Origin: an uncultured Gammaproteobacteria bacterium
GTDB lineage: Bacteria > Patescibacteriota > Patescibacteriia > Patescibacteriales > UBA12465
Direction: 5' to 3'
Length of the DNA: 64,000 nucleotides
Assembly: GCA_964645545.1 (NCBI GenBank)
Contig: CAZXZR010000001.1
Coordinates: forward strand, 27,526 to 91,525
Shown: piece after piece, positions 4,494-56,181 of the stretch
How the letters are laid out: each line of letters starts with the position of its first letter
Position numbering within the stretch: the first letter of the stretch is position 1
Position numbers and translations under genes: made by a program
The notes under the pieces: generated by a model
What the model was told of the DNA's origin: nothing
The model's database searches: none
What the model saw: the letters and a program-made list of their open reading frames with translations, nothing else

Positions 4494-5543
4494 TTACTCG
4501 CCGACCTGGCCCTGGCCGCGATTAATGCGGTCCGCGTCCAAATTAGTCGTCGGGTTAGCCAGTTCGTCTTCGCTCAATTCACCGCTTAAAGCGTCTTTGG
4601 TTGAGTATTTCGTGTCCGTTAACAAGGGCAAGACTCGGCCGACTTGACTTTTCGTGGGCACTAATTGGATCTCAAAACCGGCGCGGTAATTATCGCCGCC
4701 TTCATTAATCGTCGGCACTTGCCAGATTAATTGGCGCGAAACGGCATTATAGTTAAAAGTGCCGGCCAAAAGCGAGCGTTTACCCGTCAATTCCACGCTC
4801 ACGGGCAATTTGGCGCTCATGACAAAATCCTTAAAATCACCGCTGCTTTTTGCTTCCCAAAAAACCCAGTAATTAGTGGGCAAGCCGACTTCGGGCGGCA
4901 GGGGGCCGGCGCCTAATTGGTCGCCTTGCGGACTGTTATAAAAAAGGCTGGCGGTAACTTCTAAAGTTGCCGCTGTTTGTAGGGTCGGCAAGACCACGGT
5001 TTGCTTCAAAAGCTGGCCGGAAAACATGTATTCCACTTGCGCTTGCCAATTAAGGGCGCGCGCTTCTTTATTGAGCTGGGAAAAATAGACTTTAAAGGCT
5101 ACTTCCCCGCTGCTTCCGGCCGCGATCGGCGGTAAAAGCAGCGTCTGGCCGTTCAGAGAAGCGGTCGTCTTAGCGTCCAACTCCACCTGGCTAAGGGAAA
5201 AATTATTGTCGCTAAGAATGATATTAATTTTGGCCTTAGCCACCGGCCGCTCACCGGCGTTCTTAAAATTTATTTTCACGCTCATCGGCGCCTCGGGCTT
5301 GGCTGTCAAACTGCCTAAAGTGAAATTCAATTGCAAGGGCGGGTTATTCAAATCCACGACCGGCTTTTGACTGGGGCTAAAAAGGTCGCCCAAACCCGGC
5401 CGGTAAGCCCAAAGACCGATTATTACCGCCAAAAGAATAACGATGACTAGCGTCAAGGACAAGTCCAAAACCAAATGCCAGTGGCTTTTCCAGTAAAAGC
5501 GTTCACGTCGGCGTCGCCAGCAGCGACGAATAGCATTAAACAT
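4494..5543 (-). CDS. Membrane-anchored surface protein (paralog A). Its C-terminal domain is homologous to the C-terminus of the 47611..49608 protein.
   Basis: N-terminal TM segment. Segment GAGPLPPEVG...YWVFWEAK...LIWQVPTI... aligns with GSGPLPPAVG...FRVYWTVK...VVWNIGRL... of the other gene. Confidence 0.6.
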   Translation of the reverse strand: MFNAIRRCWRRRRERFYWKSHWHLVLDLSLTLVIVILLAVIIGLWAYRPGLGDLFSPSQKPVVDLNNPPLQLNFTLGSLTAKPEAPMSVKINFKNAGERPVAKAKINIILSDNNFSLSQVELDAKTTASLNGQTLLLPPIAAGSSGEVAFKVYFSQLNKEARALNWQAQVEYMFSGQLLKQTVVLPTLQTAATLEVTASLFYNSPQGDQLGAGPLPPEVGLPTNYWVFWEAKSSGDFKDFVMSAKLPVSVELTGKRSLLAGTFNYNAVSRQLIWQVPTINEGGDNYRAGFEIQLVPTKSQVGRVLPLLTDTKYSTKDALSGELSEDELANPTTNLDADRINRGQGQVGE

Positions 5544-8835: not shown

Positions 8836-10503
8836 TTAATTAATTATTCGCCCGCCGAATGTCTCTAAAAGTTTATTCATCAGGCCGTCGTCGTTAAGGC
8901 CGTCTTTTTCCGGCTTTTTTTCCTCAGCGCCGGACGCGGCGGCCGTGGTCGCTTGGCTGGCGGTCGCGGCGCTGTTTTTTTCTTCTTGCCGGATTTCCAA
9001 ATTCTCGTCCAAGGAGGAAACTAAAACTAAAGGCGAGCCAAAAACTTCACTTATGGCCGTTTCCACCAAATTTTTTAAGCTCGGGTCATGCAAACGGTCC
9101 TGATGAAATTTATATTTAAATAACAAATACAAACGGCTATCTTTTATCATTTGCGGCCGGCAATTTTGCAAAACAAAAGCTAAGGAATGGTTATATTTTT
9201 TCAGGCGCAGTAAGAATTCCGGCCATTTGCCCAAAATTTCCTCATGGCTAAAATTAATGGGAGCGCCCGGGGGCGGCGTTTTTTCGGCACCAGGCGCCTC
9301 TTTGGCCTTGGCGGCCGGCCGGTTTTTAGCCATCGGCGAGAAAAAAGTCCGGGAAGACGGCGCCGGCTTTAAAGATGAATCTTCTAAAGAATCCGTATAC
9401 ATTTTTTGTACAGAAAAGCATAATTCGCCAATGGCCAGCTCCAAGGGTAATTGGGCAATCAAAGGATTTTTGTTGTCGTTATAAGTTTCCAGAAAACGGC
9501 GCGTGAAAGAAAAAAGCTGTTCCCAATTAAGCTCAGCGGCGATCTCGCTCAAGCGCATTTCCAGGTTTTCGCCCCAATCCAAGCCTAAATTTTGCGCCAA
9601 GCTGGGGCTTAATTTATTTAAAATTATTTGCCTTAAAAGGCTAATGACTTCGCCGGTGAAATTCTTAATGTTAACCCCGCTCTCGGCTAAATTATTGACC
9701 AAAGCCACGGCTTTGGCCGCGTCCTTACGGCGCAGGTATGCCAATAAATCCACGGCCTCGTGGCTGTTATAGTGCGGAATGACCAATTCCGCCTGGGCTA
9801 AGGATATTTGTTTGTCGCCCAAGGAAAAAATTTGACCCAAAAGGCTTTCGGCGTCGCGCAAATGTCCGCCCGAACGCAAAGCCACTGCTTCCAAAACTTC
9901 TTTGTCAATAGCCACCTTTTCTTGAGCGGCGATAAAAGTTAATTTTTTGACGATTTCCACGATGCTGATGCGCTTGAAATCAAAACGTTCACAGCGGGAA
10001 ACAATGGTCGCCGGCACTTTATGGACTTCGGTCGTGCAGAGAATGAAAATGACGTGGGCCGGCGGCTCCTCAATGATCTTTAAAAGGGCGTTAAAAGCCG
10101 ACAAAGACAGCATGTGGACTTCGTCAATAATAAAAACCTTATACTTAGTGCTTGCCGGCGCCAGGCGCGAGGAAGCGATAATGTTGTCGCGAACGTTATC
10201 CACGCCGGTATTGCTGGCGGCGTCAATTTCCAAAACGTCCAAGTTCTTGCCGGCGATGATGCTTAGACAGCTCGGGCAGGCGTTGCAGGGCTCGTATTCT
10301 CCAGACCGCCGCTTCTCGCAATTGACGGCTTTGGCCAAAACGCGGGCTAAGGTCGTCTTGCCCACCGCCCGCGGGCCGCAAAATAAATAGGCCTGGGCGA
10401 TTTTGCCGCCGGCGACTTCGTTCTGTAAAGTTATTTTGATGTGATTCTGCCCTAAAATTTCCGAGAAATTCTGGGGGCGGTAATCACGGTATAAAGTAGC
10501 CAT
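8836..10503 (-). CDS. dnaX: DNA polymerase III subunit gamma/tau.
   Basis: Walker A GPRAVGKTT and a Cys-rich zinc motif CEKRRSGEYEPCNACPSC. AAA+ clamp-loader layout. Confidence 0.88.
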   Translation of the reverse strand: MATLYRDYRPQNFSEILGQNHIKITLQNEVAGGKIAQAYLFCGPRAVGKTTLARVLAKAVNCEKRRSGEYEPCNACPSCLSIIAGKNLDVLEIDAASNTGVDNVRDNIIASSRLAPASTKYKVFIIDEVHMLSLSAFNALLKIIEEPPAHVIFILCTTEVHKVPATIVSRCERFDFKRISIVEIVKKLTFIAAQEKVAIDKEVLEAVALRSGGHLRDAESLLGQIFSLGDKQISLAQAELVIPHYNSHEAVDLLAYLRRKDAAKAVALVNNLAESGVNIKNFTGEVISLLRQIILNKLSPSLAQNLGLDWGENLEMRLSEIAAELNWEQLFSFTRRFLETYNDNKNPLIAQLPLELAIGELCFSVQKMYTDSLEDSSLKPAPSSRTFFSPMAKNRPAAKAKEAPGAEKTPPPGAPINFSHEEILGKWPEFLLRLKKYNHSLAFVLQNCRPQMIKDSRLYLLFKYKFHQDRLHDPSLKNLVETAISEVFGSPLVLVSSLDENLEIRQEEKNSAATASQATTAAASGAEEKKPEKDGLNDDGLMNKLLETFGGRIIN

Positions 10504-10512
10504 AGAAAAATT

Positions 10513-12978
10513 TTAAGCGCCCACGGCCGTGCGCCGGTTTATTTCCGCTTCCACCAAGTGGACGTTCTGGCCATATTTCAAGCGGCTCAAAGACCGCGTC
10601 TTCTCGGCGATGCCTTCCCGCTTGGTGCCTAAAATCGGCCAAATCGTCTTTAAGGAAAAGGGCCTTAAAGCACTATTGTCCACCAATAATTTGATATAGG
10701 CGATGCCTTTGTCAATATTTATTAAATCGTATTCGTTAAAAACCGGAGCGAACTCCTTGACTAAGAACTCGGCATCTTCCGAGCCGACTTTAAAGGCCAC
10801 GAACGTGCCGACGTTGCCGAAAATGGCGTCTTTGATTTCCGTATTTTGGTTCTTGACCAGTTGGCCAATGTACTGATGGGCGATAATCAGGTTTAAGGCG
10901 TATTTTCTGGCTTCGGAAAGAATTTGACAAACGGAATTGGTGGTGAAATTTTGAAACTCGTCAATATAGAGATAAAAATCTTTGCGCGCTTCCTTGGACA
11001 AATCTGTGCGCGACAAAGCCGCCATTAAAATTTTGCCGACCAAAATCATGCCCAGAAGATAAGCGTTCATTTCCCCCACTAGACCTTTAGGCAAATTAAT
11101 TAAAAGAATTTTTTGCTGGTCCATTATTTCGCGCACGTTGAAGGCGCTTTTCTGCTGGCCGATAATCGGCCGCATCATGTCATTAGAAATGAAGGAGGTC
11201 AGCTTGGAGGTGATATAAGGGACGATATTGGCCAGGGCCGCTTCCCCGCCCGCTTTCTCCGCTTCCTTCCGCCAGAAGTCAACGACCGTCTGGTTCTTGC
11301 AGCGGCTTAATTTCAGGCGCCGGAACTCCTCGTCGGCCAAGACTTTGGGAATTTCCATCAAAGTGGAACCGGTTTCCGGATCGTCCATGACCAGGAGCAT
11401 GGCGTTTCTCATATATTGCTCAAACATCGGCCCGCCGGTCTGCTTTAAGTCATATAACTTGTCAAAGATGCCGATCATTTCGTTAATGACAAAGCTTTTT
11501 TGCTCGGGATAGCGCGGATCATATTCCAAAAGGTTTAAGGCCATGGGCCGCTCCGTGTCGGCGGGCGAGAAAATGACCACGTCTTCCGCGCGCTCGGGCG
11601 GCATACGATCCAAGATATCGGAAATCAAATCGCCGTGCGGATCCAAAACGCAAACGCCTTCCCCGTTCTGGATGTCCTGAATGGCCAAATTGGTCAAAAA
11701 CACGGACTTACCGGTACCGGATTTGCCGATAACGTAGGTGTGGCGGCGGCGGTCGGCGCGCTTCATGCGAATTTCCTTCTTGACCCCGCGATAGACGTTC
11801 TCGCCCAAACTGATACCCTCGCTCGGCACTTCGGCCGGCGCCGGGGCGCTTTTGGCCGTCAGCCAGAGGATATTGGGCGTTTCCGTGGTCTTCAAGGGCA
11901 AATGGAAAAGGCTAGCCAATTCCTCGCTATTCAATAAGAAAGCATTTTTTTCGCGGAAACGGCGATAAATGAAATCCTTAATGATCTGCTCGCCGTTTTT
12001 CTTACGGGCGCGGGAAAAAGTATTGCCGTAACTGAAATTATTATATTCAGAGAAGGCACTGGCGACGTTGTCCAAATAGACGTTGGCCTGGGCTTTTGCC
12101 GGCGCCGAGGCAATCAAGCGCAAATTGACATCCAAGCCGGCTTTGAGATTTTTTTCTTCCACCTGTTTGACGATTTCCTCTTCCACAGCGCTTAAACGCG
12201 GCATTTCCTGGGGAGCGGCCGGATTTTTCGAGGCCGGCTTGCTCTTGAAGGCGGCTTTGAAAGCGGGAAATAAAGCGCCGGCCTTCAAGCCCGCGGCCAC
12301 GGAATTTTTCTTATGGATTTCCCTGACCACGCGCCGCACCCGGCCGTGCCAGGAACCGCGCGCGCTCCGAACCGTGTATTGTATGGCCAGACTTTCGTCC
12401 TTGTCCAATTTGGACAAGGCGTTGACCAAAGAATTCATAGGATCCACTTCCAATTGCCGGTAGGTTTTCAAGGGGAAAATATAACTTTTATTGGTTTTTA
12501 AATAGGCGGCCGCGATTTGGCTTTTCGCGTTGAAAACGTTATAATCCTCCACTTCTTCAATAACCGCTTCTGGATAATGGGCGTGAATCTGCTGTTCCAA
12601 ATAGCGGGAAGATGGCGTCGGGCAAACGACATAAAAAGCGATACGGTTATGACTGGCCACGATTTCCAAAGAAAAATGATCGTCACGTCCCAAAAGCCAG
12701 GCAACAAAGCCCTTTTGCGCCTTCAAACCGCCAATGGCGGCAAACAGGGTTTCACCCTTGGCCATTTCCTCTTTTAATTGCTGTTCCGAAGCCTGGCCTT
12801 TCTGGTCTTCCGGTTTTTCCTTGGGCAGGCGGACCAAAAAGACCTGCTGTGAAGTTAGATGCCGGTTTTTTAAAAAAAGCCGCAAGCGATAAAGAAGCGC
12901 GAAAACGACCAAAAGGGTCGCTACCGGCACCAGTAAGTAGGGCAAAAGCTGGACCGGGCTAAAATTTAAATTTTCCAT
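10513..12978 (-). CDS. Membrane-anchored P-loop ATPase of the DUF87/VirB4-VirD4/HerA-FtsK class (type IV secretion-like). It has an N-terminal extracytoplasmic domain. The start is probably the ATG at 12978; the ORF track alternative is 13077.
   Basis: Walker A VIGKSGTGKSV and Walker B LYIDEFQNF. N-terminal TM segment. The N-terminal domain (FSLEIVASHN...YPEAVIEEVEDYN...YIFPLKTY) is homologous to the 53508..54980 protein. Confidence 0.7.
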   Translation of the reverse strand: MENLNFSPVQLLPYLLVPVATLLVVFALLYRLRLFLKNRHLTSQQVFLVRLPKEKPEDQKGQASEQQLKEEMAKGETLFAAIGGLKAQKGFVAWLLGRDDHFSLEIVASHNRIAFYVVCPTPSSRYLEQQIHAHYPEAVIEEVEDYNVFNAKSQIAAAYLKTNKSYIFPLKTYRQLEVDPMNSLVNALSKLDKDESLAIQYTVRSARGSWHGRVRRVVREIHKKNSVAAGLKAGALFPAFKAAFKSKPASKNPAAPQEMPRLSAVEEEIVKQVEEKNLKAGLDVNLRLIASAPAKAQANVYLDNVASAFSEYNNFSYGNTFSRARKKNGEQIIKDFIYRRFREKNAFLLNSEELASLFHLPLKTTETPNILWLTAKSAPAPAEVPSEGISLGENVYRGVKKEIRMKRADRRRHTYVIGKSGTGKSVFLTNLAIQDIQNGEGVCVLDPHGDLISDILDRMPPERAEDVVIFSPADTERPMALNLLEYDPRYPEQKSFVINEMIGIFDKLYDLKQTGGPMFEQYMRNAMLLVMDDPETGSTLMEIPKVLADEEFRRLKLSRCKNQTVVDFWRKEAEKAGGEAALANIVPYITSKLTSFISNDMMRPIIGQQKSAFNVREIMDQQKILLINLPKGLVGEMNAYLLGMILVGKILMAALSRTDLSKEARKDFYLYIDEFQNFTTNSVCQILSEARKYALNLIIAHQYIGQLVKNQNTEIKDAIFGNVGTFVAFKVGSEDAEFLVKEFAPVFNEYDLINIDKGIAYIKLLVDNSALRPFSLKTIWPILGTKREGIAEKTRSLSRLKYGQNVHLVEAEINRRTAVGA

Positions 12979-12980
12979 AT

Positions 12981-13463
12981 CTAAACTTTGTCTCTTATCT
13001 TCATTATCCGGTCGGCCTTGATTTTCGCTTCCTGTTCTAAGAAAAAGCGGTTCACGCCTGGCAAAAGTCTTAACCATTTCTTGATTAGGTCAATAATTTT
13101 TTTCACTTTCACCTTGGCCTTGTTTAATAAAGCGTTAATCTTAGTCACCATTTCTTCGCCTTTGGCTTTGAAGACTTTTTGCTCTTCCGGTTTCAAGCGC
13201 AAAAAGACCTCGTTCAAACCTTCGGCCAAAATCGCGTCTATGGCCGCGGCTCGACGCTGTTGGAAAGTCTGGGTTTGGATTCCAGCTTTCACCCCGCCTT
13301 CCCCAGTCTTCTCCAAAGGCTGGGCCGTTTCCGCGGCCTTTTCCGGTATCGCTGCCTCCGGGCCTTCATTCCTGGCTTCCGGGAGTTCCGGCTTGGCTTC
13401 TTTTTCCGGCTGGCCGCCCTCTTCCGGGCGGGGCAATTTTTCTCCGATTTTTTCCGCGGGCAT
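12981..13463 (-). CDS. Hypothetical protein with a Pro/Glu/Lys-rich low-complexity N-terminus.
   Basis: Tightly packed: 5 nt after the ferredoxin gene and 2 nt before the ATPase start. Codon usage resembles neighbours. Confidence 0.5.
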   Translation of the reverse strand: MPAEKIGEKLPRPEEGGQPEKEAKPELPEARNEGPEAAIPEKAAETAQPLEKTGEGGVKAGIQTQTFQQRRAAAIDAILAEGLNEVFLRLKPEEQKVFKAKGEEMVTKINALLNKAKVKVKKIIDLIKKWLRLLPGVNRFFLEQEAKIKADRIMKIRDKV

Positions 13464-13467
13464 ATGG

Positions 13468-13653
13468 TTATTTTTTCTCTTTTTTCAGGCTGATCGCCCC
13501 TACCGGACAACTGGCTATGGCTTCCTTGACGCAAGGCAGGGCTTTGTCGTTAATGACCTGCGACTTGCCTTTGGCGTTAAGCCGAAAAACTCGGGGACAT
13601 AAGCTTTGACATAAGCCACAACCGATGCACTTGTTCTGGTCCACTTTTATCAT
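13468..13653 (-). CDS. Small 4Fe-4S ferredoxin.
   Basis: CIGCGLCQSLCP plus a second CP motif. 61 aa. Confidence 0.75.
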   Translation of the reverse strand: MIKVDQNKCIGCGLCQSLCPRVFRLNAKGKSQVINDKALPCVKEAIASCPVGAISLKKEKK

Positions 13654-21613: not shown

Positions 21614-23344
21614 TCAGCTCTCAATTCTCTCCCGGCGTTCGCGGACGTATTTAGTCCAGTCTTCGGCCACTTCAATAACGATCTTAAAGGGCGCTTCAAT
21701 AATAAAATCAAAGACGAAAATGAAAACATTGATTTTGGAAACGTTGTTGGATAGCCAACGGCCGACAAAAATAATCGGCATGTAGAAAAGATCAATCAAG
21801 AAAGTCAAAAGATTCTCATGGCGTTCTAGGACCATTAATTCCTTGACGCCCTTGGTGACAATGACGCTGAAAAAGCTGACCAAGGCGAGGAAGAAGAGAA
21901 AAATAATGATGCTCACCCAATTGAAATGGATAAAGGTCAAAACGCGGATGATGAAATAAATGGAAACGCAGAAAGCGGCCGCGTAAATAAGCTGGAAAAT
22001 GGCGGTTTTGATGAAATTACGGCGCGGCGGGCGACGCAAAATTAGCGGTTGTTTGCGGGCCGAACCGACGAAGGTGATTTCCTTGATGCCGGCGATGATC
22101 TTATTGGTATTGTCTTCTTGGGGCGTCGGCGTCAAGGCGACGATGAAAAATAAAAGAAGGGCGGGAAAGGAAACGTTAATGGCCAGAGATAAATAATTTA
22201 AATTTTGGTTGAACCATTGGATGGCCGGAATTTCTATTAAGACGGCGAAAATAGACTTGGTTAGAAAGATATAGATGATACTTCTCACCGCCGCCCGCCA
22301 GAGCCGGACCTTGGCCTTGCGGTAACGCGCCCGGCAAACGCTTTTGACCACCGCTGCGAAAGCACGTTCACCACTTTGTAAATCGTTATAGACTTTGACC
22401 GGATCGGTTTCCACCGTGTCGGCTAAAATCATGAAATAAAGGGAATAGAGACGAGTGATTTTATCTAATTGTTTCTTTAGGGGATGATTTAATTGCCGAT
22501 CTATTTCTCCTTTTAATTCTTCCAAATGACTACTTAACTCTTTTATTTTCCCCCGCTCAGCTTCTTTTAATCCCAAATGGCGGCTAAATTCCAGCCACTC
22601 GCCGTTATAGTATTTGAAGAGCACGAAACTTAACATATCCGGATCAAATTTCAAAAAAGTCCGGGCGATGCTCAAATAAATCTGGATGTCCAGGTCGCGC
22701 TCACGGGGTAAGTCTTCGGGTAATTTAATGTTCGCCGTCAAAACGGCAAACATGTTGTTGACAATAACTTGCTTAACGCGGTTGGGCGCTAAATTCTCTT
22801 CAATTTCGCAAGCGGCCAATTTAAAGAGCCAGCGGATAAGCTGATTTTTTCCTTTAATTAAATCCCGCACCCGATTAATGTCGGCTTTTAAATTCAGGTC
22901 GGCGTTAATCTTGGCGGCCAATTGATTTTTTAGATAAAGATATTTCTCTAAGATGGCGGCGATCTCACCGATTTTAGTTTCCGGCAATTTATTGTTGGGC
23001 AGATAACTGCCACGAATCAGTTCCTGCAAAAGCTGGCGGGCACTATCAACACTATGCGTTTCCTTGATCACGCCTTCAATCACCACTTGCCGCCGTAAAA
23101 TGCGGGCCATGGCGTTTTTACGCAACAAGTGCTCCTCTTCGTAATCAACGGCGTTACGCACTTTTTCATAGACAAAAGCCAAAGCCGAAACCAAAGAAGA
23201 AACCTTGATTTTCAGCCCCTCTTCCTCGCCTGTTTCTTTTTTATTTTTTTCGCTGTAAATCACCTGGAAAAGTTTTTTCGCGTTTTCGTTAAGCTCTAAG
23301 GGCGTCTCGCTCTCGTTTTTCCTGATTAAATTTGGGCTAACCAT
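21614..23344 (-). CDS. Hypothetical 576-aa protein with a soluble coiled-coil-rich N-terminal part and a polytopic C-terminal membrane domain.
   Basis: Long ORF, tightly spaced after rsmI, hydrophobic C-terminal third. No recognised motif. Confidence 0.55.
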   Translation of the reverse strand: MVSPNLIRKNESETPLELNENAKKLFQVIYSEKNKKETGEEEGLKIKVSSLVSALAFVYEKVRNAVDYEEEHLLRKNAMARILRRQVVIEGVIKETHSVDSARQLLQELIRGSYLPNNKLPETKIGEIAAILEKYLYLKNQLAAKINADLNLKADINRVRDLIKGKNQLIRWLFKLAACEIEENLAPNRVKQVIVNNMFAVLTANIKLPEDLPRERDLDIQIYLSIARTFLKFDPDMLSFVLFKYYNGEWLEFSRHLGLKEAERGKIKELSSHLEELKGEIDRQLNHPLKKQLDKITRLYSLYFMILADTVETDPVKVYNDLQSGERAFAAVVKSVCRARYRKAKVRLWRAAVRSIIYIFLTKSIFAVLIEIPAIQWFNQNLNYLSLAINVSFPALLLFFIVALTPTPQEDNTNKIIAGIKEITFVGSARKQPLILRRPPRRNFIKTAIFQLIYAAAFCVSIYFIIRVLTFIHFNWVSIIIFLFFLALVSFFSVIVTKGVKELMVLERHENLLTFLIDLFYMPIIFVGRWLSNNVSKINVFIFVFDFIIEAPFKIVIEVAEDWTKYVRERRERIES

Positions 23345-31842: not shown

Positions 31843-33627
31843 CTAACGCCGCTCACGAAAAAAACTGAAAACCGGCCGTGGTACTTTACTAACCATAGTT
31901 ACCCCGGGCGCGCTCCGGCCTTTGTATTTGGTTAATAAAAGTTTTTTCGCCAGGCCCTTCTTTTTCACCCAATTATAATAGCTCATCATGGCCTCGTTTT
32001 CATGGGCGCGGCGCACGGTTTTTTTGGCGTCAATGGCGTAAAGTCCGGCCGCTCTTTGCCGGCGTATGGCCGCGGTCGTCGGCGGTTGGCCGCCCCCGCC
32101 CAAACAGCCGCCCGGACAAGCCATGACTTCCAAATAATGGTAGTCTTTAAAACGTAAACGAATTTTTTTTAATTGACCCAAACCGTTAACCACCCCTAGT
32201 TTTAAACGCCGGCCAGCCAATTTAACCGTTGCTTCCTTTAGGCCGCTTAAACCGCGCACGGCTTTAAATTCCAAAGGCAAGGAAATGGCCGTTTGCTTCT
32301 TCTTTTTGCCTTGGCCACCTTTTCCTTCCTTCGCCAGTAAATAAGCGGCTGTGCGCAGGGCCGATTCCATAACCCCGCCGGAAGCGCCGTAAATGGCGGC
32401 CGCGCCTGAACCGGCGTTAAACAATTTTTCGCCGGCCGTGTCCGGCAAACTTTTAAAATCTATTTTTCGTTTTTTCAATAAATAGGCGAGTTCACGCGTG
32501 GTTAAAACGTAATCCACCAAGGGCCGCCCCTTATATTTCAATTCCGGCCGGCCGGCTTCATATTTCTTGGCCGTACAGGGGACAATGGAAACGACGGCTA
32601 AACGCCGGCTGTTCAGACCTTGTTTTTTTGCCCAATAACTTTTTATGGCGCCGGCCAAATGCATATGCGGCGAACGGGCCGTCGTCAAATGCGGCAATAA
32701 TTCCGGGTGGTAAAATTCAGCATAAGCGACCCAACTGGGACAACAGGAAGTTGTCAAAGGGAAAACCGCCTTTTTATCTTTTAAGCGCCGGACCAACTCT
32801 TCCGCTTCTGTTAGCGTCGTAATGTCGGCGCCAAAATTAATGTCAAAAACGTGCTGGAAACCTAATTTTTTTAAGGCCGTATAGCATTTGCCGGTCGCGT
32901 CTTCGCCCGGCGGCAGGCCAAACTCTTCGCCTAAGGAAACGCGCACCGCCGGCGCCAACTGAGCCAGGGCCACCAGTTTTTTCTCTTTTAATAATTTTTC
33001 CACCGCCGGCCACTGAGCCTGTTCTTGGGCGGCAGCCACCGGGCAATGCAAGACACATTGGCCGCAATAGACGCAAGCGGCGCCGACTTCACGCCGGGGT
33101 TTAACTTCTTGGTCGCTGCCCGTACCAACTAAACGCAAATAATCAATAGCCTGCAAATCGCGGCAAACCGCGAGGCAATTCTGGCAATCAATGCATTGAC
33201 TGCCGTCTATTTCCACGGCGTTGGCGAAGCGATAAGTCTTGCGCCGGCTCTTGCGGTCAGAAAAACGATTAATTTTAATCTTATACTCCTTGGCCAAGCG
33301 CAAAAGTTCGCAATCGTAAATTAAAGAGCAGCTGGTGCATTTTTCCGCGTGCTCGGCGAAAAGTAATTCCAAGTTTAAACGGCGCGCCTTTTGGACGCGG
33401 GGGCTGTTGGTTAAAATAACCATGGCCTCCCGTGCTAAGGTTGAGCACGCCGTTAGCAAGTGTTTTTCCCCTTTTACTTCCACGACGCAAACCCGGCAAG
33501 TGGCTTTATTAACTAAATCCGGGTGATCGCATAAAGTCGGAATTTTAAAACCATGATCTTTTAAAACCGCTAAAATCGTTTGCCCGGGTTTGACGCTTAG
33601 GGTTCGACCGTTAACGCTTAAATTCAT
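31843..33627 (-). CDS. hydA: [FeFe]-hydrogenase catalytic subunit, CpI-like (M3 architecture: 2Fe-2S, two 4Fe-4S domains, H-cluster).
   Basis: H-cluster motifs TSCCPSW (L1), VPCTAKKYE (L2) and EVMACPGGCLGGGGQP (L3). N-terminal 2Fe-2S fold and two CxxCxxCxxxCP motifs. Confidence 0.88.
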   Translation of the reverse strand: MNLSVNGRTLSVKPGQTILAVLKDHGFKIPTLCDHPDLVNKATCRVCVVEVKGEKHLLTACSTLAREAMVILTNSPRVQKARRLNLELLFAEHAEKCTSCSLIYDCELLRLAKEYKIKINRFSDRKSRRKTYRFANAVEIDGSQCIDCQNCLAVCRDLQAIDYLRLVGTGSDQEVKPRREVGAACVYCGQCVLHCPVAAAQEQAQWPAVEKLLKEKKLVALAQLAPAVRVSLGEEFGLPPGEDATGKCYTALKKLGFQHVFDINFGADITTLTEAEELVRRLKDKKAVFPLTTSCCPSWVAYAEFYHPELLPHLTTARSPHMHLAGAIKSYWAKKQGLNSRRLAVVSIVPCTAKKYEAGRPELKYKGRPLVDYVLTTRELAYLLKKRKIDFKSLPDTAGEKLFNAGSGAAAIYGASGGVMESALRTAAYLLAKEGKGGQGKKKKQTAISLPLEFKAVRGLSGLKEATVKLAGRRLKLGVVNGLGQLKKIRLRFKDYHYLEVMACPGGCLGGGGQPPTTAAIRRQRAAGLYAIDAKKTVRRAHENEAMMSYYNWVKKKGLAKKLLLTKYKGRSAPGVTMVSKVPRPVFSFFRERR

Positions 33628-34374: not shown

Positions 34375-35403
34375 TTAGTTTTTCAAAATATTTTTAAAAT
34401 AGCTTTTAACGGGCAGGGCTAAACTGGCGCCTAAAGGACAAAAAGACGAGTCAAATAAATTGTCCACGAGAGCGTCAAACAAAGACTGGTCAAAAGTCGG
34501 AGCCTTAATTAATTCCCATAAGCGATAAGTGCCCTCGCGGCAACTAGTACAATAGCCACAACTTTGTTCATGATAAAAATTTAGCCAATATTTAACCAAT
34601 TTTTCTTTTTTAGTTTTTTCGGCCTTGTAAACAATGACTGCGCCGGTGCTCGTTATTGGCCGCTCTAGTTGCTGGGCATTTAAAAATTCGCCGCACGCTT
34701 CCCCGCCCACCTGTACAAAAAATTTATACGGCGGATAATTGCCGGTCCGACGCAAAATTTCATTAATCGTTAAATCGGCCGGCAGAGCGTAAACGCCACG
34801 ATGGCGAAGAGCGCCGCCTAAGGTATAGAAACGTTCGCCCTGATATTTTCCCCGCGCCGCCAAGCTGACATCATAAAAAGTTTCCACATTACTAATTAAA
34901 GTCGGCCGGCCAAAAAGTCCGTGCTCGGTCGGATAAGGCGGTTTTAAACGCGGCCTGACGCCTTCGCCTTGTAAAAAATTCAACAAGGCCGTCTCTTCCC
35001 CGCTTAAATAACTTAAACTTTTCGGCTTAAATTTAAATATAACTTTCGGCGCCAAAACCTTAAATCTTTTGCTGACTAAAGCTTGTTTTAAATCGGCGCC
35101 GTAGTTCTGGTAGCAGTCGCGGGAAAGAAAAAAATATACTTCTTTTATTTTCTCTGGACCAAAAAATTGTTCGGCCCGATAAACGCCGTCTATAACCGCG
35201 CTTGGATAATGCCTAAGTATGAAAGCGTCCTTTTTCACGCCTGGTTCGCCCTCGCCGGCGTTGACAATAATGTAACCAATTTTCTTGCCTTTTAAAGCCC
35301 CCTTAACCGCCGCCCATTTACTGGCGGTTGGATAGGCGGCTCCGCCGCGGCCAACTAGGCCGGCGGCGGCGATTTTTTTCAAAATGTCAGTCGCTTTTGG
35401 CAT
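34375..35403 (-). CDS. NuoF/HndC-like NAD(P)H-binding flavoprotein (51-kDa subunit homolog, shortened to 342 aa).
   Basis: FMN site GRGGAAYPTASKW. NADH site GEETALLNFLQGEGVRPRLKPPYP. 4Fe-4S motif ESCGYCTSCREG. Confidence 0.8.
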   Translation of the reverse strand: MPKATDILKKIAAAGLVGRGGAAYPTASKWAAVKGALKGKKIGYIIVNAGEGEPGVKKDAFILRHYPSAVIDGVYRAEQFFGPEKIKEVYFFLSRDCYQNYGADLKQALVSKRFKVLAPKVIFKFKPKSLSYLSGEETALLNFLQGEGVRPRLKPPYPTEHGLFGRPTLISNVETFYDVSLAARGKYQGERFYTLGGALRHRGVYALPADLTINEILRRTGNYPPYKFFVQVGGEACGEFLNAQQLERPITSTGAVIVYKAEKTKKEKLVKYWLNFYHEQSCGYCTSCREGTYRLWELIKAPTFDQSLFDALVDNLFDSSFCPLGASLALPVKSYFKNILKN

Positions 35404-40738: not shown

Positions 40739-40887
40739 TTGGTTAATATTAATTTTAAAAAACAAAAAATATTCCTATTACTATAACATATCAATTATTA
40801 TTTGTCAAGAGGTGGTACTGTTGCAGAATTGAAGTTACCTTCTGGGGATAAATATAAAGGAAAAAGCTCTATGCAAGTAGAACTTTT

Positions 40888-45324: not shown

Positions 45325-45356
45325 GAGCTTGTCTTACTAAAGGCAAGCTTTTTTAT
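45325..45356. terminator. Hairpin with a T-run on the plus strand, overlapping the 3' end of the metallophosphoesterase gene.
   Basis: GAGCTTG-tcttactaaag-CAAGCTT followed by TTTTT. Confidence 0.3.
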
Positions 45357-46462: not shown

Positions 46463-46468
46463 AGATTT

Positions 46469-47578: not shown

Positions 47579-47610
47579 AAATAATCTCCGGCGACGGCAA
47601 ACCCAAGACA

Positions 47611-53507: not shown

Positions 53508-54980
53508 TTAGGTCGGCAAATTGGACGGCGGGGCCGCCTCTTTATGGCCTAAATCCGCTTCCGCTTGGAAAAGATCGGGCGGGTTGGCCGTGGCCGGCGT
53601 TTCTTCGGGAAGGGACGGCGGGACGGGGCGATTGTTAGTTTTAAAAATATCGGGCAGTTCTTGCGTTTTTTCTTCAGCTGCCAAAGGCAAGGAATAGGGA
53701 GCGTCGGCCTTTTTACCCGGCGCCCTTTGAATGAGCGGCGATTTTACGTTCGCTTCCACGGGAAAATGCCAAAGCGTGGCTAATTCTTCAATGTTCATCA
53801 GACCAGCCTGGCGGCCGCCGGTATTGGAGCGCTTCACGTAATTACGGAAAATCCGACGCTTTTTTTCCAACAAACGCATTTCTTTAAAAAAATAAGCGGT
53901 GCGGGTGGCTGTTTTATCCAAATCCGGCTTCAAAGCGTTTAAATCCATGGCCGTAAACTGTTTGATATAACCAATAAAGCCATTGACGACTTTCTTGACG
54001 TTCATAACTTCTTTTTTAGCCACGTAAACCATGCGCGTTTTAATGTCAAAACCCAATTTGGAAGCTTTGAACTGCAAGCCTTCCAACTGCCGTTTTTCTT
54101 TGGGGGAAAGTTCCATCATTGATTTCGGTTTCTCTTCTTTTTTAGGCGAACGATCAACGTCCTGCCAAATCGGATAAACGACTTCGCTTAATTCGCCTAA
54201 AGCCTCTAAGCCGACGCCGAATAAATCCCGGCGCGGTTTCTTGCGCCGCTCTAAAATTTTATCGGCCAGCCTATCCGCCTCTTTTATCCAGTCAAAACCG
54301 ATGGGGGTAATAATCATCTGCATCCATAGTTGCTCGCCTTGGCGCAAAGAACCGCAAAGATCCATTAAGGAAGCCATGGGATCCTTAAATTGCAGCTCGC
54401 TCGGACCGATGGGGTGTTCAAATTCCAAATAAGATTTAATCGGGTAATATTTGCTGGCGCTCTGTATGAATTCGCAACCCCAGAGGTCGTACTCTTCATT
54501 CGGCCAATGTTGCGGCATGGTCTGCGTGTAGTCGTCTACTTCCGTGATTTCCGCGTCCGGATACTGCGAGTAGACAGAGGATTCTATCAGGTTTCTGAAC
54601 TCCACCGGCGTCCAAATCAAAAACTGCGTGTAGCCCTCCTGGCTCACGATTTCATAGCTAAAAGATTTCTGAAATTCGCCGATAAACCACTTCTCAAAGA
54701 AATTTTGGGTGGCGTGCGCCCCGCCCAAATAGGTGAACATATTCTCCACCGCTTTAGGCGTCTGCTCATTGCCTTTGGGAATGTCAATGGCCAAAAGCAA
54801 ATGTTGATGGCTTTTCTTCCAATGCAACTGGCGCCAAAAAAGATAGACGCGGCGCATGCCGATAAGGAAGGTGATGGCGATCATCAGCCAGCCCAAATTA
54901 GCCATAAAAACCCAAAACATCCGTTCGGACGGCAAATTGAAAAACTGATTAATACCGGCGGTATTAATAACAAGGTCCAT
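53508..54980 (-). CDS. Membrane-anchored protein whose extracytoplasmic domain is a paralog of the N-terminal domain of the 10513..12978 ATPase. It has no P-loop and a Pro-rich C-terminal tail.
   Basis: Alignable blocks FSYEIVSQEG...YPDAEITEVDDYT...YYPIKSY against FSLEIVASHN...YPEAVIEEVEDYN...YIFPLKTY. Confidence 0.55.
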   Translation of the reverse strand: MDLVINTAGINQFFNLPSERMFWVFMANLGWLMIAITFLIGMRRVYLFWRQLHWKKSHQHLLLAIDIPKGNEQTPKAVENMFTYLGGAHATQNFFEKWFIGEFQKSFSYEIVSQEGYTQFLIWTPVEFRNLIESSVYSQYPDAEITEVDDYTQTMPQHWPNEEYDLWGCEFIQSASKYYPIKSYLEFEHPIGPSELQFKDPMASLMDLCGSLRQGEQLWMQMIITPIGFDWIKEADRLADKILERRKKPRRDLFGVGLEALGELSEVVYPIWQDVDRSPKKEEKPKSMMELSPKEKRQLEGLQFKASKLGFDIKTRMVYVAKKEVMNVKKVVNGFIGYIKQFTAMDLNALKPDLDKTATRTAYFFKEMRLLEKKRRIFRNYVKRSNTGGRQAGLMNIEELATLWHFPVEANVKSPLIQRAPGKKADAPYSLPLAAEEKTQELPDIFKTNNRPVPPSLPEETPATANPPDLFQAEADLGHKEAAPPSNLPT

Positions 54981-55140: not shown

Positions 55141-56181
55141 TTATTTCTGCCATTCCTTCAAGCCATAGGTGCCGCGGCTGGTCAGGACGTAGCGGTTGTC
55201 CAGAATAAGTTCGTTATGGACGGTGGCGGCGTTGGCCGTTTTCTTGTCAAATCTCATCTCATTTATTTTTTTGGTGATTTCCGTGAAATGCAGGGGAGCG
55301 CCCTCGTGCTTCAAAATCAGATAGATCTTGTCGTTGACCGTCTTCGGCTTGATTTCCTCCCAGTCGGCGAGGCCCCATTCCCCGTACTTATTCTGCTCTA
55401 AATTTTTAATGGCCTGCACCAAGGAATAGAGAATCTTGTTGTTGTTGATGATTTCCCCTTTGTCCGGGAAAAGCTGGCTTTTAAACACTTTCGTGATGTC
55501 GGCCGAATTCTCGTGCTGCAATTTTTCCTGATTTTTGTTATAGGCATCGAGTTTCTTCAAGAGATCTAAAAGTTCTTCGGTCGTGAAAGTCTTTTTCAGG
55601 GTTTCCACTTTCTTTAATAAGTCGCTGGCCAATTCTTCCAAATGCGTCACCGGCTCGTTTCTAAGTTTGAAGGAGGGATTGAAATAATCTTCGTCCTGGA
55701 CCAACTCCAAATCCTCGTTCAGCAGCCGTGAAATCAGGAAATTGAAATGATTGCGGTAAATCTGGCGGTTTTTTTCATAATCTGGATCATTGATATTGGC
55801 TTCATTATTAATTTCCAAAGTCATGACCGTCAAAATGTCCAAAAGATAATCGCGCCGTATCAGGCCGCCGTGTTCAAGCAAAAGATTTTGCACCGTTTCT
55901 TTTAAGGTGGCGATATAGCTTTGCAAATTTTCCAGCTTCTTGATTTTCTTGATGCTGGCCGCTTCAATTTGACGCACGCGTTCACGCGTCAACTTATGCA
56001 GGCTGCCTATTTTTTCCAAAGTTTCGCCTTTTTCGCCTTTCAAGCCGAAACGCCGCGACAAGATGTCTTTTTCGCGGTCCAAAAGTTCGGAAAACAAATT
56101 ATTGACGATTTTAATGGCATCCAGACGCGCCAGTTCTTCGGACTTTTCGTCGCGAATCATTTTTTCTAATAAATTTTCCAT
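55141..56181 (-). CDS. Putative transcription factor with an N-terminal sigma-70 region-4-like HTH and a C-terminal HARE-HTH-like domain.
   Basis: Region-4-like segment ETLEKIGSLHKLTRERVRQIEAASIKKIKK at residues about 50-80. C-terminus APLHFTEITKKINE...LILDNRYVLTSRGTYGLKEW matches the HARE-HTH pattern of RpoE-delta. Confidence 0.55.
   Translation of the reverse strand: MENLLEKMIRDEKSEELARLDAIKIVNNLFSELLDREKDILSRRFGLKGEKGETLEKIGSLHKLTRERVRQIEAASIKKIKKLENLQSYIATLKETVQNLLLEHGGLIRRDYLLDILTVMTLEINNEANINDPDYEKNRQIYRNHFNFLISRLLNEDLELVQDEDYFNPSFKLRNEPVTHLEELASDLLKKVETLKKTFTTEELLDLLKKLDAYNKNQEKLQHENSADITKVFKSQLFPDKGEIINNNKILYSLVQAIKNLEQNKYGEWGLADWEEIKPKTVNDKIYLILKHEGAPLHFTEITKKINEMRFDKKTANAATVHNELILDNRYVLTSRGTYGLKEWQK

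What the first reader, a model, noticed from the sequence alone, without database searches (positions are those of the whole stretch)
10513..13653. Ferredoxin, hypothetical and T4SS-like ATPase operon, with the ATPase N-terminal domain also present as a standalone protein at 53508-54980
The 854-aa (or 822-aa) P-loop ATPase has Walker A VIGKSGTGKSV and Walker B LYIDEFQNF. It carries an N-terminal TM segment and a ~200-aa extracytoplasmic domain. That domain aligns block by block (FSLEIVASHN/FSYEIVSQEG, YPEAVIEEVEDYN/YPDAEITEVDDYT, YIFPLKTY/YYPIKSY) with the 490-aa membrane protein 43 kb away, which has no ATPase. Both loci lie upstream of a paralogous DUF11-like surface protein (4494-5543 and 47611-49608). 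This points to two related envelope or secretion modules, one motorised and one not. A 61-aa ferredoxin and a Pro/Glu-rich protein are translationally packed ahead of the ATPase, which is an unusual operon lead for a secretion-type ATPase.
Basis: partly seen in the sequence, partly recalled or inferred. Interest (0 to 1): 0.6.

Follow-up and report, generated by a model that had tools for sequence, protein, structure and literature searches.

The report
Orphan conjugation-type coupling ATPase in Patescibacteria
A candidate-phyla-radiation (Patescibacteria) chromosome carries a membrane-anchored ATPase of the kind that feeds DNA into conjugation machines, and its large N-terminal domain (Pfam DUF8128) also occurs as a separate membrane protein; that separate protein is the membrane half of a split version of the same motor found across the phylum, and what the motor does there is unknown.

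Summary
The three ORFs, the Walker motifs and the shared domain are real. BLASTP of the ATPase N-terminus against the 490-aa protein gives E 4e-20 over about 375 aa.

Several details need correcting:
- The shared domain is the catalogued but uncharacterised Pfam DUF8128.
- It is about 350-375 aa, not about 200 aa.
- It follows a single N-out/C-in membrane helix, so it is cytoplasmic, not extracytoplasmic.

The ATPase core is of the type IV coupling protein kind (T4CP; TrwB/VirD4/TraD) by sequence. AlphaFold models of both paralogues hit only VirB4 (TrwK) at the top of the PDB fold search, so the architecture is VirB4-like.

Full-length collinear homologues sit in the T4CP position, next to the relaxase, on Bacillaceae conjugative plasmids. 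A haloarchaeal plasmid carries the same unit split into two genes.

Across diverse Patescibacteria, a DUF8128 gene is followed at once by a separate ATPase gene in 55 of 57 loci. It is preceded by a sigma-region-4/HARE-HTH gene in 45 of 57. The window keeps this HTH-DUF8128 pair but lacks the adjacent ATPase.

The 160-aa protein is a strict partner of the fused ATPase (66 of 68 loci). The ferredoxin only tracks local synteny. The DUF11 link is not supported.

The family is known and its function unknown, so interest is moderate.

The parts
10513..12978 (-). Fused DUF8128 + T4CP-like ATPase, 821 aa counted from the ATG at 12978. The longest ORF starts at 13077 and gives 854 aa.
   Evidence: ORF. 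Start context. Pfam TrwB_AAD_bind 4.6e-9, T4SS-DNA_transf 1.5e-6, TraG-D_C and DUF87, all above gathering score. Homologues carry PF26449 plus T4CP domains.
12889..12948 (-). Single N-terminal transmembrane helix of the ATPase, about residues 11-30 of the 821-aa form.
   Evidence: Kyte-Doolittle scan gives a maximum of 2.55. Net charge is -1 before the helix and +4 after it, which implies N-out/C-in.
11824..12861 (-). DUF8128 domain of the ATPase, about residues 40-385. Cytoplasmic, with a VirB4-N-terminal-domain-like fold.
   Evidence: BLASTP to the standalone protein, E 4e-20. PF26449 in homologues. Foldseek aligns the full-length model to TrwK/VirB4 over 780-800 columns at E 9e-10.
10516..11823 (-). 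T4CP-type nucleotide-binding domain. Walker A GKSGTGKS is at 11704-11727. Walker B DFYLYIDEFQ is at 10951-10980.
   Evidence: Motifs invariant in alignment A2. Best PDB sequence match is TrwB at 3.8e-6, with no VirB4 match. hhalign gives 94.9% to TrwB and 20.5% to TrwK.
12981..13463 (-). 160-aa partner protein ('h160') with no known family. It has a low-complexity Lys/Glu/Ala/Pro N-terminal half, a conserved C-terminal half of about 95 aa, and no transmembrane helix.
   Evidence: Immediately upstream of the fused ATPase in 66 of 68 loci, including 15 of 15 at below 62% identity. It has 617 homologues, all hypothetical and without Pfam domains. No paralogue in the window or on the plasmids examined.
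13468..13653 (-). 61-aa single-cluster 4Fe-4S ferredoxin. Probably co-transcribed here, but a syntenic passenger rather than part of the system.
   Evidence: Fer4_13 1e-14. There is a 4-nt gap to the next gene. Present only where the L27 synteny persists. A [FeFe]-hydrogenase and a NuoF-like gene in the window are plausible clients.
53508..54980 (-). Standalone DUF8128 membrane protein, 490 aa. One transmembrane helix at about residues 22-42 (54855-54917). Disordered Pro-rich tail ending in PPSNLPT (53511-53531).
   Evidence: ORF. PF26449 in all 120 listed homologues except two. AF2 model has pLDDT 78 and pTM 0.71. The top 13 PDB fold hits are all TrwK/VirB4. A C-terminal [AP]Px(1-3)LP motif is present in 87 of 91 family members.
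55141..56181 (-). 346-aa protein with a sigma-70 region 4 HTH at the N-terminus and a HARE-HTH (RNA polymerase delta-like) domain at the C-terminus. It is the conserved upstream neighbour of DUF8128 genes.
   Evidence: Sigma70_r4 1.2e-10 and HARE-HTH 1.3e-6. RNAP delta TIGR04567 scores 35 bits, below its cut-off of 42. A homologue lies directly upstream of DUF8128 in 45 of 57 diverse loci, with a median gap of 46 nt.

Best explanation
The 821-aa protein is a chromosomal coupling-protein-type (T4CP; VirD4/TrwB/TraD family) ATPase of Patescibacteria. No relaxase and no T4SS channel genes lie near it.

Its layout is one N-out/C-in membrane helix, then a cytoplasmic domain of about 350 aa (DUF8128) whose predicted fold matches the N-terminal domain of VirB4, then a T4CP nucleotide-binding domain with intact Walker A and B motifs.

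By analogy with T4CPs and VirB4, it most likely assembles as a membrane-bound ring. In that ring DUF8128 would form the membrane-proximal scaffold, and the ATPase ring would use ATP to move a polymer, most likely DNA, at the membrane. This step is inferred, not shown.

The same unit exists in two forms:
- Fused, as here. This form always has a lineage-specific 160-aa auxiliary protein encoded 2 nt upstream.
- Split, as in most other Patescibacteria sampled. There a DUF8128 membrane subunit is followed directly by a soluble ATPase subunit, and usually preceded by a two-HTH (sigma region 4 + HARE-HTH) DNA-binding protein.

The 490-aa 'standalone' protein at 53508-54980 is the DUF8128 subunit of that split module. 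It keeps its upstream HTH partner and its conserved C-terminal PPxNLP tail, but in this lineage the adjacent ATPase gene has been replaced by a glycosyltransferase gene. It probably still docks to an ATPase in trans, either the fused paralogue or an unlinked gene outside the window. This is also inferred.

The ferredoxin is a tightly packed neighbour, not a component.
For: Family and anatomy (shown):
- T4CP Pfam models score above gathering cut-offs.
- The best NCBIfam matches are T4CPs, TraD and CD1115 VirD4-like.
- The best PDB sequence match is TrwB, then DotL, with no VirB4 match. hhalign gives TrwB 94.9% and TrwK 20.5%.
- There is a single transmembrane helix with positive charge after it.

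Fold (shown, with caveats): two independent AF2 models give only TrwK/VirB4 as top PDB hits.
- Standalone model: 13 of the top 13 hits, E 1.2e-4.
- Full-length model: 11 of the top 11 hits, E 9e-10, over 780-800 aligned columns. The T4CPs Cag-beta and DotL follow at 6.6e-4 over the nucleotide-binding domain only.

T4CP role of relatives (shown):
- Collinear 833-913-aa homologues (E 1e-39 to 1e-53) lie on pBM69 and on Shouchella clausii and B. subtilis plasmids.
- They sit between a primase gene and a Replic_Relax relaxase gene, and upstream of a Tcp-like transfer operon that has its own VirB4 (AAA_10, 2e-119).

Separability of the two domains (shown):
- On a Halorussus plasmid a 376-aa DUF8128 gene overlaps the start of the ATPase gene.
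- In 55 of 57 diverse Patescibacteria loci a DUF8128 gene is followed by a separate ATPase gene, with a median gap of 12 nt.

Orthology of the standalone protein to the split-type subunit (shown):
- It is 34% (maximum 48%) identical to the split-type subunits, against 24% for the fused N-terminal domain.
- It shares their upstream sigma4/HARE-HTH neighbour.
- Its nearest relatives with enough downstream DNA to judge (L164, L136, L148) still have the adjacent ATPase.
- It shares their C-terminal motif.

Partner h160: present in 66 of 68 loci.

Literature: 5,713 VirD4-like homologues were reported in 2,918 Patescibacteria genomes, only 148 of them near virB4, and the function was described as possibly exapted (PMC12102498).
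Against: - No substrate, partner channel or relaxase was found in the window or in about 160 related loci, so DNA translocation is inferred from family membership only.
- The VirB4-NTD likeness rests on Foldseek alone. TM-scores are low (0.2-0.34). The ATPase half of the full-length model is poor (pLDDT 61).
- Profile comparisons of DUF8128 with VirB4 N-terminal domains and with TrsD found nothing.
- I could not check whether this genome encodes a separate split-type ATPase outside the 64-kb window.
- The reported T4CP homologue of Southlakia epibionticum was not essential (PMC12102498). That argues against a core housekeeping role, although I did not verify that it is a DUF8128-type protein.
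Confidence: 0.62

Rival explanations
1. There are two related envelope or secretion modules, one with a motor and one without. Each serves a DUF11-like surface protein, with an extracytoplasmic shared domain and a ferredoxin-led operon.
For: Both loci do have a DUF11/CARDB-like gene a few genes downstream, and those two proteins share a 130-aa domain at E 1e-13. The standalone protein sits beside GT4, DUF4012 and DUF11 envelope genes in this lineage.
Against: - The topology is cytoplasmic.
- dnaX, serS and a GHL15 gene separate the ATPase from the first DUF11-like gene.
- DUF11, DUF4012 and ferredoxin homologues are neighbours of DUF8128 in 0 of 80 diverse loci.
- The ferredoxin is lost together with the L27 synteny.
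Confidence: 0.04
2. It is a highly divergent VirB4, the signature motor of the T4SS channel, fused to a VirB3-like membrane helix. The standalone protein would be a TrsD-like N-terminal-domain-only paralogue. Both would serve the Patescibacteria T4SS encoded elsewhere in the genome.
For: - Fold searches rank VirB4 first for both proteins, and over the whole length of the ATPase.
- Split VirB4 exists elsewhere, as TrsD+TrsE on pSK41.
- TrsD-like proteins are abundant in Patescibacteria (PMC12102498).
Against: - VirB4 profiles match only the P-loop (TIGR00929 at 5e-5 against a cut-off of 643 bits).
- There is no hit to CagE_TrbE_VirB or AAA_10.
- TrwK and TrsE score far below TrwB, and TrsD gives no match.
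- On Bacillaceae plasmids the homologue coexists with a bona fide VirB4 and sits beside the relaxase.
- No VirB3, VirB6 or VirB8 genes lie nearby.
Confidence: 0.15
3. It is a housekeeping FtsK/HerA-like DNA pump for chromosome segregation, repair or replication-linked DNA handling, unrelated to any secretion.
For: - The family is phylum-wide, with 4,283 clusters at 50% identity.
- It is always chromosomal and lies among housekeeping genes such as dnaX, serS, secDF and EF-P.
- dnaX stays downstream even at 55% identity.
- An HTH DNA-binding partner is conserved.
Against: - FtsK_SpoIIIE and HerA_C Pfam matches are below threshold (0.02 and 0.018).
- The closest non-Patescibacteria relatives are plasmid T4CP-position genes.
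- Gene packing and long-range synteny in these small genomes make housekeeping neighbours weak evidence.
Confidence: 0.15

Closest known systems
Type IV coupling proteins (T4CP): TrwB of R388, VirD4, TraD, TrsK/CD1115 family
   Same: - P-loop nucleotide-binding domain with T4CP Pfam signatures above threshold.
- TrwB is the best PDB sequence match, with 40% identity over the Walker A block.
- N-terminal membrane anchor.
- A helical insertion between Walker A and Walker B in the model.
   Different: - One transmembrane helix rather than two.
- A 350-aa DUF8128 domain lies between the membrane helix and the ATPase.
- No relaxase or mating-pair genes nearby.
- Chromosomal and vertically conserved.
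- All specific NCBIfam T4CP models score far below their cut-offs.
VirB4 (TrwK of R388; PDB 8RTB, 8RTD, 7O42, 7O43)
   Same: Two-domain layout of an N-terminal alpha/beta domain plus a C-terminal ATPase. It is the top and exclusive fold match for both proteins.
   Different: - No detectable sequence or profile similarity outside the P-loop.
- The window protein has its own transmembrane helix.
- It is not encoded with VirB3, VirB6 or VirB8.
- TM-scores are only 0.2-0.34.
Bacillaceae plasmid 'DUF87 domain-containing proteins': pBM69 BMMGA3_RS16220, Shouchella clausii DB29_RS21110, B. subtilis KJP60_RS23015
   Same: Full-length collinear homologues with DUF8128 followed by the ATPase. They score E 1e-39 to 1e-53 against the family HMM, and their N-terminal parts score 1e-17 to 1e-25 against the DUF8128 HMM.
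   Different: They are plasmid-borne. They sit next to a Replic_Relax relaxase gene and a Tcp-like transfer operon with a separate VirB4. They have no h160 homologue.
Haloarchaeal plasmid pair (Halorussus limi M0R89_RS23095 + RS23090)
   Same: DUF8128 (376 aa, E 2.5e-22) and a T4CP-like ATPase (E 1.3e-28) are encoded as two overlapping genes. They are split exactly at the domain boundary, as in most Patescibacteria sampled.
   Different: The host is archaeal and the genes are plasmid-borne. The ATPase is 1007 aa, and the pair lies within a pilin-containing transfer cluster.
TrsD + TrsE of pSK41/pGO1 (split VirB4)
   Same: An N-terminal-domain-only protein is encoded directly upstream of its ATPase. 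This is the same logic as the DUF8128 and ATPase pair (PMC12102498).
   Different: TrsD (227 aa) has no sequence match to the DUF8128 HMMs, and TrsE is a VirB4, not a T4CP.
'Orphan' VirD4-like T4CP homologues of Patescibacteria (Quinonero-Coronel et al. 2025, PMC12102498)
   Same: Almost certainly the same proteins. The paper reports 5,713 homologues in 2,918 genomes, nearly all far from virB4, with the function left open.
   Different: As far as the terms I searched in it show, the paper does not describe the DUF8128 domain, the split and fused forms, or the HTH and h160 partners. 'DUF8128' occurs in no paper of the searched library.

Membership tests
T4CP (VirD4/TrwB/TraG/TraD) | Nucleotide-binding domain matching T4CP profiles, with intact Walker A and B motifs | tested here: met
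   TrwB_AAD_bind scores 36.1 bits (cut-off 20.5), T4SS-DNA_transf 27.8 (20.1) and TraG-D_C 25.9 (22). The Walker motifs are invariant in 76 sequences.
T4CP (VirD4/TrwB/TraG/TraD) | N-terminal membrane anchor with a cytoplasmic ATPase | tested here: met
   One helix with positive charge on its C-terminal side. Canonical T4CPs have two helices.
T4CP (VirD4/TrwB/TraG/TraD) | Encoded with a relaxase and/or a mating-pair formation system that it serves | tested here: not met
   No relaxase, VirB4 or VirB6 in the 64-kb window. None appeared among the recurrent neighbour gene clusters of the 80 metagenome loci. The 80 fused-type loci were probed only for seven window proteins. Plasmid homologues do meet this feature.
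T4CP (VirD4/TrwB/TraG/TraD) | Hexameric, DNA-stimulated ATPase that recruits substrates | not testable with these tools
   Needs biochemistry or a multimer structure.
VirB4 | N-terminal domain plus C-terminal ATPase architecture | tested here: met
   Foldseek of the full-length model hits TrwK at E 9e-10 over 780-800 columns. The standalone model hits TrwK at E 1.2e-4. TM-scores are low.
VirB4 | Sequence match to VirB4 profiles (CagE_TrbE_VirB, AAA_10, TIGR00929) | tested here: not met
   Only the P-loop matches TIGR00929, at 21.7 bits against a cut-off of 643. There is no Pfam VirB4 family hit. hhalign to TrwK gives 20.5%.
VirB4 | Encoded with VirB3, VirB6 and VirB8-type channel genes | tested here: not met
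   None in the window or among the recurrent neighbour clusters of the metagenome loci.
DUF8128 (Pfam PF26449) | Match to the family profile | tested here: met
   PF26449 is precomputed for all 120 listed ATPase homologues, including the 100%-identical P0001. It is also precomputed for the 100%-identical standalone P0121 and 117 of its 119 other listed homologues. The local Pfam copy lacks this model. My own DUF8128 HMM scores 2e-173 and 5e-81 on the two window proteins.
HerA / FtsK-SpoIIIE | Match to HerA or FtsK profiles above threshold | tested here: not met
   HerA_C scores 14.1 bits (cut-off 22) and FtsK_SpoIIIE 14.8 (cut-off 24). The generic DUF87 model just passes, at 24.7 against 23.2. 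HerA structures rank below VirB4 and T4CPs.
TrsD | Sequence similarity to TrsD of pSK41/pGO1 | tested here: not met
   The DUF8128 HMMs against TrsD give E of 10 or more.
4Fe-4S ferredoxin (for the 61-aa ORF) | Single-cluster ferredoxin profile and cysteine motif | tested here: met
   Fer4_13 scores 55.3 bits (cut-off 24.5). The sequence has CIGCGLC near the N-terminus and a distal CP.

The most novel reading that the evidence does not exclude
Patescibacteria carry a phylum-wide, domesticated three-part DNA-handling machine. Its parts are a two-HTH (sigma region 4 + RNA-polymerase-delta-like) DNA-binding protein, a DUF8128 membrane subunit and a T4CP ATPase. It would work without a relaxase or a T4SS channel, for example in DNA uptake or export, or in chromosome handling, in organisms that must scavenge nucleotides. 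DUF8128 would then be the counterpart of the VirB4 N-terminal domain, meaning that coupling proteins and VirB4 descend from one two-domain ancestor and that canonical VirD4 lost this domain.
Probability: 0.3. Interest if true: 0.7.

Novelty: new variant of a known kind. Interest (0 to 1): 0.48.

Why it matters
Patescibacteria make up a large share of bacterial diversity. Their T4SS genes are essential for epibiotic growth in the one species tested, but their many VirD4-like 'orphan' ATPases have no assigned role.

This analysis gives those ATPases a defined anatomy:
- a membrane helix, a VirB4-like scaffold domain and a coupling-protein motor;
- interchangeable fused and split forms;
- two conserved partners, a 160-aa protein and a sigma4/HARE-HTH DNA-binding protein;
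- a conserved C-terminal docking-type motif.

It also ties them to real coupling-protein genes on Gram-positive and archaeal plasmids. Together these points turn a vague annotation into testable hypotheses about who binds whom and whether DNA is the substrate. If the fold match holds, it also bears on how the two T4SS motor families are related.

For the finding as written, the main value is corrective. The ferredoxin and the DUF11 proteins are bystanders, and the shared domain is inside the cell.

Tried and rejected
- **Profile comparison of DUF8128 with VirB4 N-terminal domains.** I used TrwK alone, and TrwK plus three Tcp-type VirB4s. No signal appeared (probability at most 5%, and only at the P-loop). 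The VirB4 alignment was small, so this is inconclusive rather than negative.
- **DUF8128 HMMs against TrsD, TrsE and TrsK of pSK41.** No match.
- **Full-length AF2 model of the ATPase.** The N-terminal half is usable but the ATPase half is poor (pLDDT 61, pTM 0.46). I did not use it to judge the all-alpha domain or the ring interfaces.
- **Pfam and NCBIfam on h160.** Only sub-threshold noise, BrnA_antitoxin at 0.036 and MobP3 at 0.094. The h160 HMM found no relative in the window, in plasmid loci or in split-type loci.
- **Rfam and tRNA scans of the window.** Nothing found.
- **Promoter and terminator scan around the operon.** Nothing decisive.
- **Neighbourhoods of close homologues**. Synteny is conserved genome-wide at 58-76% identity, so these were uninformative. 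The more distant GTDB and metagenome loci were needed.
- **Ferredoxin as a redox partner of the ATPase.** Rejected on the co-occurrence counts.

Full report
**1. What is in the sequence**

The window is a gene-dense chromosome piece with almost all genes on the minus strand. Its closest relatives are Patescibacteria (Falkowbacteria-like) metagenome-assembled genomes.

The three ORFs of the finding are present:
- a 61-aa ferredoxin at 13468-13653, matching Fer4_13 at 1e-14;
- a 160-aa Lys/Glu/Ala/Pro-rich protein at 12981-13463;
- a long ORF at 10513-13077.

The ferredoxin stop and the next ATG are 4 nt apart. The 160-aa ORF ends in a TAG that lies 2 nt before an in-frame ATG at 12978. Homologues are 820-830 aa, so the ATPase is most likely 821 aa, starting at 12978. 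The Walker A (GKSGTGKS) and Walker B (DFYLYIDEFQ) motifs are invariant across 76 homologues.

The 490-aa protein at 53508-54980 exists. It aligns with residues 45-418 of the ATPase ORF at E 4e-20 and 24% identity.

**2. Topology**

Each protein has a single strongly hydrophobic segment near the N-terminus. The net charge is -1 before it and +4 or +5 after it. A second hydrophobic stretch in the ATPase lies inside the nucleotide-binding fold, just before Walker B.

With one membrane helix and an ATPase that must face the cytoplasm, the shared domain is cytoplasmic. It is an inference from the positive-inside rule and from domain order.

**3. Family assignment**

The ATPase half passes the Pfam gathering scores of TrwB_AAD_bind, T4SS-DNA_transf, TraG-D_C and the generic DUF87 model. 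FtsK and HerA_C are sub-threshold.

NCBIfam ranks coupling proteins first, SXT TraD and CD1115 VirD4-like. All are far below their equivalog cut-offs, and VirB4 matches only at the P-loop.

Against PDB sequences, the family profile finds TrwB (3.8e-6) and then DotL, with no VirB4 match. hhalign gives 94.9% to TrwB and 20.5% to TrwK.

Public annotations of close homologues read 'type IV secretory system conjugative DNA transfer family protein' or 'TraM recognition domain-containing protein'.

The shared N-terminal domain is the catalogued Pfam family PF26449, DUF8128. The name occurs in no paper of the searchable library.

A profile of both paralogue families finds 4,283 clusters at 50% identity. 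The best hits are mostly 420-600 aa proteins, with a minority of about 850 aa fusions to the same ATPase.

**4. Fold**

An AF2 model of the standalone protein has pLDDT 78 and pTM 0.71. In the PDB its top 13 Foldseek matches are all TrwK/VirB4 of plasmid R388, with a best E of 1.2e-4 and probability 1.0. Lower hits are unrelated ferredoxin-like folds with low probability.

The full-length ATPase model is good in the N-terminal half and poor in the ATPase half (pLDDT 61). It matches TrwK/VirB4 in its top 11 hits at E 9e-10, over 780-800 aligned columns. The T4CPs Cag-beta and DotL follow at 6.6e-4 over the ATPase domain only, and HerA comes after them. Foldseek alignments are sequential, so an 800-column alignment implies that N-terminal domain aligns with N-terminal domain.

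Caveats:
- TM-scores are only 0.2-0.34.
- Profile comparisons see no sequence similarity between DUF8128 and VirB4 N-terminal domains or TrsD.

The motor is VirD4-like by sequence, and the architecture is VirB4-like by predicted fold.

**5. Relatives outside Patescibacteria**

A tblastn search against plasmids finds 401 records.

Full-length collinear homologues of 833-913 aa, annotated 'DUF87 domain-containing protein', occur on Bacillus methanolicus pBM69, a Shouchella clausii plasmid and a B. subtilis plasmid. In each case the gene lies between a primase gene and a Replic_Relax relaxase gene. It is upstream of a Tcp-like transfer operon that has its own VirB4 (AAA_10, 2e-119). That is the coupling-protein position.

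My HMMs confirm that both halves are homologous. The whole-family HMM gives 1e-39 to 1e-53, and the DUF8128 HMM gives 1e-17 to 1e-25 on the N-terminal parts.

On a Halorussus limi plasmid the unit is split. A 376-aa DUF8128 protein (2.5e-22) overlaps the start of a 1007-aa T4CP-like ATPase (1.3e-28), with the break exactly at the domain boundary.

**6. Which neighbours are real partners**

Close homologues at 58-76% identity share genome-wide synteny, so their neighbourhoods are uninformative.

I examined 80 species-representative loci of the fused gene, at 55-79% identity and reaching Uhrbacteria and Magasanikbacteria. Among the 68 with at least 1 kb of upstream sequence:
- The 160-aa protein is immediately upstream in 66 of 68 loci, including 15 of 15 at below 62% identity.
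- The ferredoxin is present in 50 of 68 loci, in 49 of them together with the adjacent L27 gene. It is present in only 3 of 15 of the most divergent loci.

The 160-aa protein is therefore a dedicated partner and the ferredoxin is a syntenic passenger. The window also encodes a [FeFe]-hydrogenase and a NuoF-like protein, which are more plausible clients for a small ferredoxin.

The 160-aa protein has 617 homologues. All are hypothetical and none has a Pfam domain. It has no relative in the plasmid loci, elsewhere in the window or in split-type loci.

**7. What the 'standalone' protein is**

A metagenome scan seeded with diverse DUF8128 representatives returned 80 loci, at 36-47% identity to the seed. 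I called genes in these loci and scored them with HMMs.
- The DUF8128 gene has a median length of 435 aa and one transmembrane helix.
- It is followed at once by a separate ATPase gene in 55 of 57 loci that have at least 1.5 kb downstream. The median gap is 12 nt.
- That ATPase is 480-780 aa and scores E 1e-100 to 1e-128 against the window ATPase's C-terminal HMM. The examples I read begin at the P-loop region. One example, L125_2, carries a C-terminal CxxC-x17-CxxC domain.
- A homologue of window gene 55141-56181 lies directly upstream in 45 of 57 loci with room. The median gap is 46 nt.

That upstream gene encodes a protein with a sigma-70 region 4 HTH at the N-terminus and a HARE-HTH (RNA-polymerase-delta-like) domain at the C-terminus.

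In the window this HTH gene directly precedes the standalone DUF8128 gene, but a GT4 glycosyltransferase gene follows where the ATPase gene would be.

Several observations link the standalone protein to the split-type subunits:
- It is closer to them (median 34%, maximum 48% identity) than the fused N-terminal domain is (24%).
- Its nearest relatives with enough downstream DNA to judge (L164, L136, L148, 43-45%) still have the adjacent ATPase.
- A C-terminal [AP]Px(1-3)LP motif (PPSNLPT here) lies in the last 14 residues of 66 of 75 split-type subunits and 87 of 91 members of the standalone family.

The 'non-motorised module' is thus the membrane subunit of a split coupling ATPase that lost its adjacent motor gene in this lineage. 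DUF11, DUF4012, ferredoxin and dnaX homologues are neighbours in 0 of 80 of these loci. The two DUF11-like proteins of the window share only a 130-aa C-terminal domain.

**8. How it most likely works**

Shown:
- the domain order;
- intact catalytic motifs;
- T4CP-type sequence;
- fused and split interchangeability;
- strict partners.

Inferred from what is established for T4CPs and VirB4 (reviewed in PMC12857230):
- The protein forms a membrane-bound ring.
- DUF8128 makes the membrane-proximal layer. In R388, the VirB4 N-terminal domain plays this part by binding VirB3 and VirB8 (from my own knowledge of the published R388 structure, not tested here).
- The ATPase ring drives a polymer, most likely DNA.
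- Small partners act as auxiliary or substrate-recruiting factors, as TraM, TrwA or CagZ do for canonical T4CPs. Here these would be h160 for the fused form and the two-HTH protein for the split form.

No relaxase or channel gene is nearby. [quoted passage not shown] Whether the substrate is imported DNA, exported DNA, the chromosome or a protein cannot be decided here.

**9. Novelty and score**

The ATPase family, its T4CP-like nature and the DUF8128 domain are already catalogued, so the finding as stated is not new in kind.

The following points did not turn up in the paper library. 'DUF8128' occurs in no paper, and the two T4SS papers that mention Patescibacteria and VirD4 did not describe them in the passages I retrieved:
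- the cytoplasmic VirB4-like reading of DUF8128;
- the split and fused forms;
- the conserved HTH-DUF8128-ATPase module;
- the h160 partner;
- the C-terminal motif;
- the link to plasmid T4CP-position genes.

I rate it a new variant of a known kind, with moderate interest (0.48). The more novel reading, a phylum-wide domesticated DNA-handling machine and a shared two-domain ancestor of VirB4 and T4CPs, gets a probability of about 0.3.

Noticed in passing
window 55141-56181 (-) and L090-L169: A 346-aa protein combines a sigma-70 region 4 HTH with an RNA-polymerase-delta-like HARE-HTH and lacks sigma region 2. It is the conserved upstream neighbour of DUF8128 genes across diverse Patescibacteria (45 of 57 loci). 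Its own function is unknown: DNA adaptor, RNA polymerase-associated factor or regulator.
   Followed up: partly
L125 and other split-type loci (for example L125 2013-3725): The split-type ATPase subunit I examined in detail (L125_2) ends in a CxxC-x17-CxxC zinc-ribbon-like domain (TIGR04272, 45 bits against a cut-off of 36). The fused window ATPase lacks it. Other split-type ATPases were not scanned for it.
   Followed up: partly
window 53511-53531 (-) and A1, L090-L169: A conserved extreme C-terminal motif, PPxNLP followed by a hydrophobic residue, ends almost all DUF8128 subunits. A second copy (ADAPYSLP) lies just after the domain in the window protein. It looks like a docking peptide, but the partner was not identified.
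   Followed up: partly
window 8836-10503 (-) and L003-L082: dnaX stays directly or closely downstream of the fused ATPase even in the most divergent loci (55-56% identity, Uhrbacteria and Magasanikbacteria). This could be plain synteny or a hint of a replication link.
   Followed up: no
window 31843-33627 and 34375-35403 (-): A [FeFe]-hydrogenase large subunit with 2Fe-2S and 4Fe-4S domains, and a NuoF-like flavoprotein. This is fermentative hydrogen metabolism that could use the small ferredoxin at 13468-13653.
   Followed up: no
window 45353-53458 (-): An envelope gene cluster follows the standalone DUF8128 gene: a GT4 glycosyltransferase, an 847-aa DUF4012 protein and a 665-aa DUF11/DUF7619 protein. 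The order is conserved at 58% identity (L088), but these genes are absent from DUF8128 neighbourhoods in other lineages.
   Followed up: partly
L090-L169: secD and secF genes lie two to three genes upstream of the DUF8128 gene, just before the HTH gene, in 36 of 80 loci. This is probably synteny, but it is recurrent.
   Followed up: no
window 21614-23344 (-), 40042-40794 (-), 42327-43445 (+): Three sizeable ORFs (576, 250 and 372 aa) have no Pfam match at E 1e-3.
   Followed up: no
window 1-64000: No tRNA gene and no Rfam family at gathering score in 64 kb. Genes on the plus strand around 23.8-27.3 kb (L1 and neighbours) account for the local AT-skew spike.
   Followed up: partly
L006, L010, L035, L040, L047, L059 (record titles): Several GTDB records carrying near-identical Falkowbacteria-type genes are titled 'uncultured Gammaproteobacteria', 'Bacillota', 'Planctomycetota', 'Saccharimonadales' or 'Nanoarchaeia'. 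These are probably mislabelled or contaminated bins.
   Followed up: no
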